A DNA stretch of 64,000 bases, taken from the NCBI GenBank assembly GCA_934169745.1, contig CAKPOE010000004.1, positions 72,268 to 136,267 on the forward strand, written 5' to 3'. Below, in pieces: positions 35,789 through 36,424 of this stretch. The stretch comes from an uncultured Clostridia bacterium (GTDB lineage Bacteria > Bacillota > Clostridia > TANB77 > UBA1234). The stretch's first letter is position 1; each line of letters begins with the position of its first letter. The position numbers were made by a program, and so were the translations under genes. The notes beneath the pieces were generated by a model. The model had not been told where the DNA came from and searched no databases. It was given only the letters and a program-made list of their open reading frames with translations.

Positions 35789-36424
35789 TTATTTAGTTTT
35801 TGTAGACTTTGCCTTTGTGGTCTTAGCTTTTGCCTTTTTAGGTTTGCTCTCTGTTTCCTTAGAAGTTTCATCCTTCTGTTTTTCTTCTTTAACTTCTTCC
35901 GAAACATTTTCCTTTTCCTCGTTTTCAGCAGGCTTCTCTTCAGTCTTTTCTTCTTCAGTACTTTCCAAAGAGTTATTCTCATCATTCTCAATCACTTCTT
36001 CAATGACATCTGTTACTTCTTGTGGTGTGTCATCTTCTTCTGAAAGCTCGCCCTCAACAATGTTTTGAGCATCATCTTCTACATCTTCGCTTTCTTCTTC
36101 CTTTTTATCCTCTACCTTTTTAGCAACTGGTTTTATATTCTTTATAGGAATATTTGCATATAATGCTGGTCCTTCTAGCCCATCCTCACAGCCTCTTGTA
36201 AGTTGTACTTCCAAAGCTTCTTCATCAATCTCTATGTATTTTTTAATTACTTCTATTATTTCCTTTTTCATCATTTCAAAGAAATCAGGTGAAACACTTG
36301 CTCTATCCTGCATAAGTACTAACTGAAGTCTTTTTTTAGCCTCATCCTTAGAATTTTCTTTATCTTTGTTCTGCAAATTTTTTATAAAATTTACTATTGG
36401 TTCAAATAATTCTTTAAGTTCCAT
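35789..36424 (-). CDS. minE: Cell division topological specificity factor MinE with ~110-aa acidic/lysine-rich C-terminal extension
   Basis: First ~95 aa (…KKRLQLVLMQDRASVSPDFFEMMKKEIIEVIKKYIEIDEEALEVQL…) is canonical MinE. It is followed by a low-complexity tail (EDKKEEESEDVEDD…KPKKAKAKTTKAKSTKTK). Confidence 0.75.
   Translation of the reverse strand: MELKELFEPIVNFIKNLQNKDKENSKDEAKKRLQLVLMQDRASVSPDFFEMMKKEIIEVIKKYIEIDEEALEVQLTRGCEDGLEGPALYANIPIKNIKPVAKKVEDKKEEESEDVEDDAQNIVEGELSEEDDTPQEVTDVIEEVIENDENNSLESTEEEKTEEKPAENEEKENVSEEVKEEKQKDETSKETESKPKKAKAKTTKAKSTKTK

What the first reader, a model, noticed from the sequence alone, without database searches (positions are those of the whole stretch)
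35789..36424. MinE with a 110-residue acidic then lysine-rich C-terminal extension
Canonical MinE is ~90 aa. Here the MinE fold (first ~95 aa) is followed by an E/D-rich low-complexity stretch and a K-rich tail (…KPKKAKAKTTKAKSTKTK), giving 211 aa. A polyanionic-then-polycationic tail on MinE could mediate membrane, nucleoid or condensate interactions and is not a described feature of Min systems.
Basis: seen in the sequence. Interest (0 to 1): 0.5.

Follow-up and report, generated by a model that had tools for sequence, protein, structure and literature searches.

The report
MinE with conserved charged disordered tail
This is a genuine cell-division MinE protein that, across a large group of uncultured gut Clostridia, carries a selected but fast-evolving disordered tail (a long acidic stretch ending in a lysine-rich tip); no paper found here describes it, and it may tune how the Min division-site system meets the membrane.

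Summary
ORF 35789-36424 (- strand) encodes a 211-aa protein. Residues 1-~100 are an unambiguous MinE, and residues ~102-211 form a tail with an acidic block (net -28) followed by a Lys/Thr/Ser tip (net +8).

It is not an artefact. The identical protein is encoded on 11 independently assembled contigs.

It is not a one-off:
- 116 of the 120 closest 90%-identity clusters are at least 180 aa long.
- All 19 loci from uncultured gut/rumen Clostridia carry tails, whereas 32 Clostridium, Butyrivibrio and other loci end within 6 residues of ...NIPIKNIK.
- 117 of the 136 nearest 50%-identity representatives have tails of at least 50 aa, up to 320 aa.

The tail sequence turns over about 40 times faster than the core, but its length, its acidic-then-basic order and its open frame are kept. 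dN/dS in related tails is 0.08-0.25. AlphaFold gives pLDDT below 50 and no secondary structure for the tail.

Long-tailed MinE also travels with a longer N-terminal membrane helix and with minC unlinked from minDE.

The function is untested. My preferred reading (about 0.4) is an electrostatic membrane tether that tunes MinE dwell time. The rivals are binding to nucleoid or another polyanion, self-association, and a passive bristle.

Eight full-text searches found no description of it. I rate it a new variant of a known kind, of moderate interest.

The parts
35789..36424 (-). minE coding sequence, 211 codons plus stop. The protein is the MinE core followed by the charged tail.
   Evidence: ORF list and sequence. 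Pfam PF03776 at 89.3 bits and TIGR01215 at 70.8 bits. The identical protein is on 11 contigs.
36365..36424 (-). Residues 1-20, the N-terminal amphipathic membrane-targeting helix (ELKELFEPIVNFIKNLQNK). It is about 10-14 aa longer than in canonical Clostridium MinE.
   Evidence: Helical hydrophobic moment of 0.77 for KELFEPIVNFIKNL, against 0.36-0.45 for the E. coli and C. perfringens-type N-termini. Alignment with canonical MinE. AF2 helix 3-42. F13 is invariant; M1, E2, E5, F7, E8 and P9 are nearly invariant.
36122..36364 (-). Residues 21-101: the MinD-contact helix (AKKRLQLVLMQDR) and the dimerisation/topological-specificity domain. This conserved core ends at ...NIPIKNIKPVA.
   Evidence: Pfam match to residues 25-95. 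PDB MinE chains 3r9j, 6u6q and 2kxo align to residues 22-93. There are 45 invariant columns among 70 homologues. Core conservation is about 90%.
35855..36121 (-). Residues 102-190, the polyanionic low-complexity block, predicted disordered. One search computed net -28 for the slightly longer stretch 97-190.
   Evidence: Composition. AF2 pLDDT is below 50 for 103-143, 145-147, 154-205 and 209-211, with no secondary structure anywhere in the tail. In 130 homologues, tail bins 1-7 are net negative in 78-99% of sequences.
35792..35854 (-). Residues 191-211, the polycationic Lys/Thr/Ser/Ala tip (TESKPKKAKAKTTKAKSTKTK, net +8). The stop codon is at 35789-35791.
   Evidence: Composition. The last two tail bins are net positive in 97-100% of 130 homologues, with 34-42% T+S and 3-4% hydrophobic residues. 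Helical hydrophobic moment is low (0.30), so the tip is not amphipathic here.
36435..36442 (-). Shine-Dalgarno-like GAGAGGGG, 10 nt upstream of the minE ATG.
   Evidence: Read directly from the sequence.
36513..37310 (-). minD (265 aa) with a C-terminal amphipathic membrane helix (GFWAKVKELFAKPV), immediately upstream of minE.
   Evidence: TIGR01968 minD_bact at 398.8 bits. Hydrophobic moment 0.59. C-termini compared across 52 loci.
34616..35728 (-). rodA (FtsW/RodA/SpoVE family), 60 nt downstream of minE on the same strand. The scan of 34500-38300 found no terminator-like site between them.
   Evidence: Pfam PF01098 at 304.8 bits. Terminator scan. minD-minE-rodA-dus synteny holds in 19 long-tail loci.
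37373..37445 (-). Terminator-like hairpin (37445-37421) followed by a promoter-like TTGACT-17-TATCAT (37401-37373) upstream of minD. This suggests that minD-minE-rodA is its own transcription unit.
   Evidence: Consensus scan. These are pattern matches only, not proof of function.
25336..25983 (-). minC (215 aa). It lies after mreB-mreC-mreD-pbp2, about 10 kb downstream of minE on the coding strand, and is unlinked from minDE.
   Evidence: Pfam MinC_C at 106.7 bits and MinC_N_1 at 27.6 bits. Synteny comparison.

Best explanation
The gene encodes a functional MinE, the activator of the MinD ATPase. In a large radiation of uncultured gut and rumen Clostridia, MinE has acquired a selected, intrinsically disordered C-terminal tail with a fixed architecture. 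A polyanionic spacer of about 70-100 residues is followed by a Lys/Thr/Ser-rich polycationic tip of about 25-35 residues, two tails per MinE dimer.

Shown here:
- the MinE identity of the core;
- that the tail is real;
- predicted disorder;
- clade-wide conservation of length and charge order despite rapid sequence turnover;
- purifying selection;
- co-occurrence with a longer N-terminal membrane helix and with minC unlinked from minDE.

Inferred, not shown: the tail acts as an electrostatic module at the anionic cytoplasmic membrane, where MinE works. The cationic tip gives a second, salt- and lipid-charge-dependent membrane contact. The anionic spacer is repelled from the bilayer and can fold back on the tip or on the basic N-terminal region. 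It would therefore act as a tether and partial auto-inhibitor.

The net effect would be to tune MinE's membrane dwell time and its stimulation of MinD. Reconstitution work identifies these as the parameters that set the length scale and mode of Min patterns. The Thr/Ser-rich tip could additionally be a phospho-regulated charge switch.
For: MinE identity:
- Family models match well above their cutoffs.
- The contact-helix residues A29, K30, R32 and L33 are invariant. They align to the AKERLQ segment of E. coli MinE in PDB chain 3r9j.
- The gene is adjacent to minD.

Real and selected:
- The identical protein is on 11 contigs.
- 116 of the 120 nearest 90%-identity clusters are at least 180 aa, with an acidic middle; nearly all full-length members have net +3 to +10 in the last 20 residues.
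- Among 130 unique tails the median length is 116 aa (range 81-159). Bins 1-7 are net negative in 78-99% of sequences and bins 9-10 net positive in 97-100%. For 113 of 130 tails, the net charge of the last 15% was reached or exceeded in at most 5 of 500 shuffles.
- Tail dN/dS is 0.08-0.25, against 0-0.06 for the core.
- Window versus P0006: core pN 0.008 and tail pN 0.34, with pS saturated, yet both keep the same architecture.

Disorder: pLDDT is below 50 with no secondary structure.

Membrane relevance:
- MinE acts at the membrane, and mutations in its membrane-targeting sequence reset pattern wavelength and restrain ATPase stimulation (PMC5473585).
- A C-terminal eYFP appendage on E. coli MinE alters membrane binding, MinC displacement and ATPase stimulation (PMC7276532).
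- The same proteins have a lengthened, strongly amphipathic N-terminal helix.
- 23 of 136 homologues have a window with helical hydrophobic moment of at least 0.45 in their last 35 residues. In one group this window is the cationic tip itself (e.g. GFEKIKSKVKAKN, AKDGIKKIKSKVK), which resembles a membrane-targeting helix. In others the window lies just upstream of the tip.
- The tip contains almost no acidic or hydrophobic residues and is 34-42% Thr+Ser.
Against: - No experiment, and no computation here, shows membrane binding.
- The window protein's own tip is not amphipathic (moment 0.30). A purely polybasic peptide would bind DNA, RNA or polyphosphate as readily as anionic lipid.
- The whole tail is net -20, and up to -82 in relatives. 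That should oppose approach to an anionic surface.
- There is no charge matching between the acidic and basic blocks, so simple intramolecular neutralisation is not what is conserved.
- About 29% of clean long tails in the wider radiation (31 of 107) lack a basic end. The lower-GC group (27-28%) L015-L018 and L020 also lacks one, with last-20 net charge from -10 to +2. The tip is therefore not indispensable to whatever the acidic block does.
- Sister subfamilies have conserved helical motifs that suggest a specific partner rather than pure electrostatics.
Confidence: 0.4

Rival explanations
1. The polycationic tip binds the nucleoid (AT-rich DNA) or another cytoplasmic polyanion such as RNA or polyphosphate. 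This would couple or sequester MinE relative to the chromosome, in the manner of the lysine-rich tails of H1- and HU-type proteins. The acidic block would act as a DNA-mimicking auto-inhibitor.
For: - The tip is 37-42% K/R with Thr/Ser/Ala spacers and almost no hydrophobic residues. This composition fits non-specific polyanion binding better than membrane insertion.
- The genome is 68% AT.
- Basic tails held in check by acidic tracts are a well-known arrangement in chromatin proteins such as HMGB1 and nucleoplasmin (my own knowledge, not tested here).
Against: - No H1-like SPKK or P[KR][KR] motif is enriched: 17 of 130 tips have one, against 10.5 expected from shuffles.
- MinE's known site of action is the membrane.
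- Some subfamilies have amphipathic tips more typical of membrane helices.
- The net negative tail should be repelled by DNA as much as by membrane.
Confidence: 0.2
2. The block-polyampholyte tails drive MinE-MinE association. The tip of one dimer pairs with the acidic block of another, which makes MinE assemble cooperatively on the membrane (a built-in 'E-ring' or condensate).
For: - Strong charge segregation: kappa is 0.255 against 0.155 +/- 0.037 in shuffles, and SCD is 0.50 against 8.57 +/- 1.02.
- MinE is dimeric, so it is at least bivalent (established knowledge of the family; the dimeric PDB entries appear).
- Partner proteins of other ParA/MinD ATPases use charged disordered regions to tune self-association (McdB, PMC10554743; seen, abstract only).
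Against: - The charge imbalance is large: net -20 here and up to -82 in relatives. This disfavours self-coacervation without multivalent counter-ions.
- The tails contain no aromatic or Arg/Gly 'stickers'.
- Many relatives lack the basic end.
Confidence: 0.12
3. The tail has no specific ligand. It acts as an acidic entropic bristle that enlarges MinE, slows its diffusion, keeps it soluble and limits non-specific sticking. Alternatively it is a merely tolerated low-complexity expansion in an AT-rich lineage, with the basic end a by-product.
For: - The sequence is unalignable even between close relatives while the core is about 90% conserved.
- Indels are frequent (4-49 gap positions per pair) and tail length ranges from 50 to 320 aa across the radiation.
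- GAA and AAA codons are favoured in a 32% GC genome.
- The canonical 88-95-aa MinE proteins evidently work without a tail.
Against: - dN/dS is 0.08-0.25, not about 1.
- The frame stays open, and the acidic-then-basic order persists after synonymous sites have saturated.
- The basic end is net positive in 97-100% of 130 family members.
- No other ORF among the 56 in the window shows a comparable segment, so this is not a genome-wide drift.
- Conserved motifs exist in sister tails.
Confidence: 0.18
4. The long ORF is an assembly or frameshift artefact, or an accidental fusion of minE with a downstream gene.
For: Low-complexity, purine-rich DNA is prone to sequencing and assembly errors. A few database relatives do look truncated or frameshifted: P0005, P0022, P0056 and P0082, and 10 'junk-like' tails. 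One MAG (L019) shows a MinE::RodA fused frame.
Against: - The exact 211-aa sequence is on 11 independently assembled contigs from ENA, Logan and NCBI.
- Hundreds of diverged homologues keep the same frame and architecture.
- rodA follows as a separate, complete ORF 60 nt downstream.
Confidence: 0.01

Closest known systems
Canonical bacterial MinE (E. coli, Neisseria, Helicobacter; PDB 3r9j, 2kxo, 6u6q, 1ev0)
   Same: - MinE domain over the full Pfam model.
- N-terminal amphipathic membrane-targeting helix.
- MinD-contact helix motif AK.RL..hh...R.
- Gene directly downstream of minD.
   Different: - A 110-115-aa disordered tail, acidic then basic, follows the point where canonical proteins stop.
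- The N-terminal helix region is 10-14 aa longer.
- minC is not in the same operon.
FtsZ C-terminal linker plus C-terminal variable region (CTL/CTV)
   Same: FtsZ is a division protein whose folded core is followed by a fast-evolving disordered spacer and a short charged extreme C-terminus. The net charge of that terminus, rather than its sequence, changes behaviour (PMC4835091).
   Different: - The FtsZ tip is 4-6 residues long and sits after a conserved partner-binding peptide.
- The FtsZ linker is not a polyanion.
- The resemblance is functional analogy only; there is no homology.
Disordered, charged regions in partner proteins of other ParA/MinD ATPases (McdB, PomX/PomY)
   Same: These are ATPase-activating partners of ParA/MinD-family ATPases, and they carry charged disordered regions that tune self-association and positioning (PMC10554743 and PMC13170346, listed; abstracts only read).
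   Different: The folds are unrelated. Their systems act on the nucleoid, not the membrane. The charge-block order differs.
Plastid MinE1 of plants (AtMinE1/ARC12)
   Same: It is a MinE homologue longer than the bacterial protein, with sequence beyond the MinE domain at the C-terminus. This is my recollection of Itoh et al. 2001 and Maple et al. 2002. The primary papers were not retrievable here.
   Different: It has a eukaryotic, cyanobacterial-derived origin with a transit peptide. I do not recall its extension being acidic-then-polybasic low complexity. It was not compared here.
Lysine-rich tails of histone H1-, Hc1- and HU-type (HupB) nucleoid proteins
   Same: The composition of the tip: K with A/T/S/P spacers, predicted disordered. 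The comparison with these proteins rests on my own knowledge.
   Different: No repeated PAKK- or SPKK-type motif is enriched. The tip is attached to a membrane-acting protein through a long polyanion.

Membership tests
MinE (cell division topological specificity factor; Pfam PF03776 / TIGR01215) | Match to the curated family models above their trusted cutoffs | tested here: met
   PF03776 scores 89.3 bits against a cutoff of 25, covering model positions 1-68 of 68. TIGR01215 scores 70.8 against 49.3.
MinE (cell division topological specificity factor; Pfam PF03776 / TIGR01215) | MinD-contact helix with a conserved A-K-x-R-L motif (E. coli A18, K19, R21, L22) | tested here: met
   AKKRLQLVLMQDR is at residues 29-41. 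A29, K30, R32 and L33 are invariant in 70 homologues. The segment aligns to AKERLQ of PDB chain 3r9j.
MinE (cell division topological specificity factor; Pfam PF03776 / TIGR01215) | N-terminal amphipathic membrane-targeting sequence | tested here: met
   KELFEPIVNFIKNL has a helical hydrophobic moment of 0.77. AF2 predicts a helix from residue 3. This is a sequence-level test only; membrane binding was not measured.
MinE (cell division topological specificity factor; Pfam PF03776 / TIGR01215) | Dimeric alpha/beta topological-specificity domain fold | tested here: inconclusive
   The AF2 monomer model gives helix 46-64, and only isolated beta bridges (around residues 76-77 and 88-89) with pLDDT of about 60-85. 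Sister protein P0103 shows strands 75-79 and 88-92. A dimer could not be modelled with these tools.
MinE (cell division topological specificity factor; Pfam PF03776 / TIGR01215) | Encoded next to minD | tested here: met
   minD (TIGR01968, 398.8 bits) ends 88 nt upstream of minE. The same order holds in all 19 related loci with an intact long-tailed minE; in L019 a truncated minE follows minD.
MinE (cell division topological specificity factor; Pfam PF03776 / TIGR01215) | Stimulation of MinD ATPase and displacement of MinC | not testable with these tools
   This needs biochemistry with the cognate MinD and MinC.
MinE (cell division topological specificity factor; Pfam PF03776 / TIGR01215) | Typical size of about 80-95 aa, ending a few residues after the last strand (a typical property, not a defining one) | tested here: not met
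   The protein is 211 aa. The 32 canonical loci end within 6 residues of NIPIKNIK, and PDB chains are 58-95 aa.
Amphipathic-helix membrane-targeting sequences (MinD/FtsA type), considered for the C-terminal tip | Cationic helix with a contiguous hydrophobic face | tested here: not met
   The best moment in the window tip is 0.30, with no large hydrophobic residue. The feature is met only in some relatives, e.g. L012, P0124 and P0125, with moments of 0.46-0.49.
H1/SPKK-type lysine-rich DNA-binding tails, considered for the C-terminal tip | Recurrent S/T-P-K-K or P-[KR]-[KR] minor-groove motifs | tested here: not met
   The window tip has one KPKK. Across the family, 17 of 130 tips have P[KR][KR], against 10.5 expected from shuffles. 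DNA binding itself was not testable.

The most novel reading that the evidence does not exclude
A whole radiation of gut Clostridia has rebuilt the Min oscillator around a MinE carrying a built-in electrostatic tether: a polyanionic spacer with a switchable polycationic, Thr/Ser-rich tip, alongside a longer membrane helix and an unlinked minC. MinE's residence on the membrane, or its contact with the nucleoid, would then be set by lipid charge, ionic conditions or Ser/Thr phosphorylation. That would make it a natural reaction-diffusion system tuned by a disordered region, and possibly a Min-nucleoid coupling that substitutes for nucleoid occlusion.
Probability: 0.2. Interest if true: 0.7.

Novelty: new variant of a known kind. 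Interest (0 to 1): 0.45.

Why it matters
MinE is one of the smallest and most intensively modelled pattern-forming proteins. In vitro work shows that its membrane affinity and C-terminal appendages strongly reshape Min dynamics (PMC5473585, PMC7276532).

This lineage offers hundreds of natural variants that add a 50-320-residue tail to an almost invariant core. The tails conserve charge pattern but not sequence. They are ready-made material for asking how disordered electrostatic modules tune a reaction-diffusion system. They also bear on how the Min system works in abundant but uncultured gut Clostridia, where minC is no longer co-transcribed with minDE.

The finding also matters for annotation. 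These proteins are simply labelled 'MinE', and their tails are easy to dismiss as artefacts.

Tried and rejected
- **Artefact or frameshift.** Rejected, because the exact protein is on 11 contigs and hundreds of homologues are in frame.
- **Tandem-repeat expansion as the origin.** Only two weak 15-nt repeats of 2-3 copies were found.
- **Genome-wide low-complexity drift.** No other ORF of the 56 in the window has a comparable segment.
- **A known domain in the tail.** There was no Pfam, NCBIfam or PDB hit beyond the MinE core.
- **A conserved motif in the window's own tail.** An HMM built from the sister-subfamily motif ([ST]EE.A[DE]..A[DE].IL..[IA]E) finds 44 distinct strong instances (E <= 1e-8, plus one at 0.005) among the unique hit segments listed, but nothing in the window protein or its closest relatives. 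My eye-match 'QEVTDVIEEVIEND' is therefore not supported.
- **H1-like SPKK or P[KR][KR] motif in the tip.** Not enriched.
- **Amphipathic membrane helix in the window tip.** Absent.
- **Charge matching between the acidic and basic blocks.** Absent: tails are net -20 here and reach -82 in relatives.
- **A conserved new gene replacing minC upstream of minD.** The upstream context varies among long-tail loci.
- **A compensating change in MinD's membrane helix.** All MinDs keep an ordinary amphipathic C-terminus.
- **Literature.** Eight full-text searches found no description of long-tailed bacterial MinE. The primary plant MinE1 paper was not held, so that comparison rests on memory.
- **Taxonomic placement below 'uncultured Clostridia'.** Cluster look-ups gave no organism names beyond 'Clostridia bacterium'.
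Full report
**1. The observation**

The ORF at 35789-36424 on the minus strand is exactly as described. It has an ATG start and 211 codons, and it ends ...SKPKKAKAKTTKAKSTKTK. A Shine-Dalgarno-like GAGAGGGG sits 10 nt upstream.

Pfam MinE (PF03776) matches residues 25-95 over the entire model at 89.3 bits. TIGR01215 matches residues 13-96 at 70.8 bits. Both are well above their curated cutoffs. Solved MinE structures (3r9j, 6u6q, 2kxo) align to residues 22-93, and nothing in the PDB matches beyond that.

Residues 97-190 contain 40 Asp/Glu against 12 Lys/Arg (net -28). The last 21 residues contain 9 Lys against 1 Glu (net +8).

Among 56 long ORFs in the window, this is the most extreme acidic segment. 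It ties for the most basic segment with one internal stretch of ORF 38090-41245.

The long-range segregation of charge is far outside what its composition gives. SCD is 0.50, against 8.57 +/- 1.02 in 300 shuffles. Kappa is 0.255, against 0.155 +/- 0.037.

**2. Not an artefact**

The identical 211-aa protein is encoded on 11 independently assembled contigs from ENA, Logan and NCBI, with the same neighbours. rodA follows as a separate, complete ORF 60 nt downstream.

Two other ORFs cross the tail: 35721-36068 on the plus strand and 35779-35991 on the minus strand in another frame. They are by-products of a coding strand that is 72% purine.

**3. How widespread it is**

- Of the 120 closest 90%-identity clusters, 116 are at least 180 aa long (median 215). 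Nearly all full-length members have a net-negative middle and a last-20-residue net charge of +3 to +10.
- In species-representative genomes, 19 loci from uncultured gut and rumen 'Clostridia bacterium' or 'Eubacteriales' MAGs encode MinE of 165-259 aa. These come from human, Hadza, rabbit, roe deer and sheep samples.
- In contrast, 32 loci from Clostridium, Butyrivibrio, Epulonipiscium-like and other genomes all stop within 6 residues of the conserved ...ANIPIKNIK. The 66-68-aa lengths in that list are under-estimates of the N-terminus, because my script allowed only ATG starts. The C-terminal ends are unaffected.
- An exhaustive HMMER scan with the core alone shows that the nearest MinE cores are overwhelmingly long. 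Of 136 representatives (50%-identity clusters) with a complete core, 117 have tails of at least 50 aa, 35 have tails of at least 150 aa, and the longest is 320 aa with net charge -82. Only 5 end canonically.
- About half of the clean long tails (52 of 107) end in a strongly basic tip of +5 or more.
- The lower-GC group (27-28%: L015-L018 and L020) has the tail but no clear basic end.

**4. How the tail evolves**

The core is extraordinarily conserved, with 45 invariant columns in 70 sequences and about 90% column conservation. Conservation collapses after residue ~101.

Between the window protein and P0006, synonymous sites are saturated (pS 0.71-0.77). The core differs at 2 of 100 residues (pN 0.008) while the tail has pN 0.34. 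Even so, both tails keep an acidic block followed by a K/S/T tip.

In pairs close enough to align, tail dN/dS is 0.08-0.25, against 0-0.06 for the core. Indels are frequent, with 0-49 gap positions per pair.

Across 130 unique tails:
- Length is constrained (median 116, inter-quartile range 110-126).
- The first seven length-normalised tenths are net negative in 78-99% of sequences.
- The last two tenths are net positive in 97-100% of sequences.
- The tip is 34-42% Thr+Ser with only 3-4% hydrophobic residues.
- For 113 of 130 tails, the net charge of the last 15% was reached or exceeded in at most 5 of 500 shuffles.

This is the signature of a disordered region selected for composition, length and charge pattern rather than for sequence.

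AlphaFold2, run with a 70-sequence alignment, gives pLDDT of 60-86 for the core. For residues 103-143, 145-147, 154-205 and 209-211 it gives pLDDT below 50, and it predicts no secondary structure anywhere in the tail.

**5. Structure hidden in sister tails**

Alignment inspection revealed a conserved motif inside the acidic block of sister subfamilies: [PV][LM][ST]EE.A[DE]..A[DE].IL..[IA]E, for example PLTEEQADAVADAILTHIEEKA. Fifty-nine proteins match the strict pattern. A degenerate ...IADEILDEA... version occurs in another subfamily. A second motif, IAENVAKEMKK, sits just before the tip in some proteins.

For P0103, AlphaFold2 predicts two helices (115-132 and 140-160, pLDDT 62-78) followed by a disordered basic tip (pLDDT about 33).

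The motif HMM does not detect anything in the window protein or its closest relatives. In the window's own subfamily the acidic block appears to be purely low-complexity.

**6. Correlated changes**

- Long-tailed MinEs also have an N-terminal amphipathic helix region 10-14 residues longer than canonical Clostridium MinE. Its helical hydrophobic moment is very high (0.77).
- In all 20 uncultured-Clostridia loci (19 with an intact long-tailed minE, plus L019) the gene order is minD-minE-rodA-dus, with no minC upstream of minD. Five canonical loci examined have pbp2-minC-minD-minE.
- In the window, minC (215 aa, MinC_C 106.7 bits) sits after mreB-mreC-mreD-pbp2, about 10 kb further along the coding strand.
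- A terminator-like hairpin and a promoter-like site precede minD.
- MinD itself is ordinary, with a normal C-terminal amphipathic helix in every locus.
- What lies upstream of minD varies among lineages.

**7. Mechanism**

*Shown:* this is a bona fide MinE carrying a real, selected, predicted-disordered tail with an acidic spacer and a basic tip.

*Inferred:* what the tail binds. I favour an electrostatic role at the membrane (about 0.4), for these reasons:
- MinE acts on membrane-bound MinD.
- MinE's membrane affinity sets the pattern length scale and restrains ATPase stimulation (PMC5473585).
- A C-terminal appendage on E. coli MinE alters membrane binding, MinC displacement and ATPase stimulation (PMC7276532).
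- The lineage has simultaneously remodelled MinE's N-terminal membrane helix.
- In some subfamilies the cationic tip becomes amphipathic, like a membrane-targeting helix.

A polybasic tip on a membrane-repelled polyanionic tether, two per dimer, would give a salt- and lipid-charge-sensitive second contact, or an auto-inhibitory fold-back. The Thr/Ser richness of the tip invites a phospho-switch.

Against this reading:
- The window tip is not amphipathic.
- The tail is strongly net negative.
- Many relatives lack the tip.
- Sister motifs hint at a specific partner.

The rivals are:
- binding of nucleoid DNA or another polyanion (0.2; no SPKK-type motif enrichment);
- block-polyampholyte self-association (0.12; the charge imbalance argues against it);
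- a ligand-free bristle or tolerated expansion (0.18; dN/dS well below 1, conserved order and MinE-specificity argue against pure neutrality);
- artefact (0.01).

**8. Comparison with what is known**

By every testable defining feature, the protein is a member of the MinE family. The features are model scores, the contact-helix motif, the N-terminal amphipathic helix and adjacency to minD. The dimeric fold and ATPase stimulation could not be tested.

It departs from every characterised MinE in three ways: the tail, the longer N-terminus, and the operon lacking minC.

The nearest analogies are functional only:
- the disordered linker and charged C-terminal variable region of FtsZ, where net charge matters (PMC4835091);
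- charged disordered regions in partners of other ParA/MinD ATPases (abstracts only);
- lysine-rich nucleoid-protein tails (my own knowledge);
- the longer plastid MinE1 (from memory; the paper was not retrievable).

Eight full-text searches returned no description of long-tailed bacterial MinE. Databases label these proteins simply as MinE. Absence from this library is not proof that the tail is undescribed.

**9. Verdict**

The tail is real and apparently undescribed. It is also a clade-wide trait rather than a peculiarity of this genome, and its function is still open.

I class it as a new variant of a known kind, with interest 0.45. It would be an intriguing natural perturbation of a model pattern-forming protein. 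However, disordered charged tails are common in proteins generally, and no mechanism has been demonstrated.

Noticed in passing
window 25336-25983 (-) versus 36513-37310 (-); loci L001-L020 versus L021, L024, L029, L036, L047: minC is unlinked from minDE. It follows mreB-mreC-mreD-pbp2, about 10 kb downstream of minE. minD-minE-rodA-dus forms its own block in the window and in all 20 uncultured-Clostridia loci (L001-L020). Canonical short-MinE loci keep pbp2-minC-minD-minE.
   Followed up: partly
window 36365-36424 (-); alignment: Long-tailed MinEs also have an N-terminal amphipathic membrane-targeting region 10-14 residues longer than canonical Clostridium MinE (hydrophobic moment 0.77). Both ends of the protein have therefore changed in this clade.
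   Followed up: partly
sister proteins P0103, P0019, P0059, L006, L008 and others (tail residues ~110-165): A conserved motif, [PV][LM][ST]EE.A[DE]..A[DE].IL..[IA]E, lies inside the acidic block. AF2 predicts a helical pair there in P0103 (115-132 and 140-160). A second motif, IAENVAKEMKK, precedes the basic tip in other subfamilies. Neither is detectable in the window protein.
   Followed up: partly
distant long MinE representatives P0197, P0231, P0206, P0220: Some 286-362-aa MinE homologues end not in a lysine tip but in a shared ...DDDDVTFDDLL[KQ]AAEEED... segment. This may be a conserved C-terminal peptide of unknown partner.
   Followed up: no
L019 3620-4819 (CAYNYD010000006.1): MinE residues 1-68 run in frame into RodA, giving a 399-aa ORF with no tail. 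This is either a real deletion fusing minE to rodA or a MAG misassembly.
   Followed up: no
window 37476-38105 (-): A 209-aa ORF lies just upstream of minD. It has an N-terminal transmembrane helix, an acidic/Asn-rich low-complexity linker and a domain of about 130 aa with no significant Pfam match (one sub-threshold hit only) and no NCBIfam match. A counterpart is found upstream of minD only in the closest relatives (L001, L002; a 206-aa ORF occupies the same position in L056, similarity not tested). A terminator-like hairpin separates it from minD.
   Followed up: partly
window 35792-36136 (-): Lys codon AAG makes up 11 of 21 Lys codons in the tail, against 25% in 31 other window genes. The longest A-run in the CDS is 7. 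This is consistent with avoidance of slippery poly(A) tracts in a translated lysine-rich tail, but the sample is small and no statistical test was run.
   Followed up: no
window 38090-41245 (-) and 41253-43550 (-): Two adjacent large ORFs lie on the same strand: 1051 aa (GH94 supersandwich, glucoamylase, DUF3131) and 765 aa (no Pfam hit). They may be parts of one glucan phosphorylase- or synthase-like system. The first overlaps the 209-aa ORF by 16 nt.
   Followed up: no
window 33106-33447 (+): A PemK/MazF-type toxin ORF lies on the opposite strand, between dus and a 235-aa ORF with no Pfam hit (32243-32950), in the stretch between the minDE-rodA-dus block and the radC-mreBCD block.
   Followed up: no
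window 8080-13322 (+) and 18048-24066 (-): Genes like those of mobile elements or secretion systems are present: TrwB-like coupling protein, VirB6/TrbL-like, and DnaD/DnaI-like replication loaders. There is also a Tad/type IV-like cluster (T2SSF, T2SSE, a second ParA/MinD-family ATPase at 20981-22237, and a TraG/HerA-like ATPase).
   Followed up: no
window 49772-51085 (+), 57391-57942 (-), 58105-58740 (+); tRNAs 7161-7395 (-), 58843-59114 (+): An SLH-domain surface protein, a GerM (Germane) sporulation/germination protein, MecA, and two small tRNA clusters. These fit a chromosomal region of a possibly spore-forming Bacillota member.
   Followed up: no
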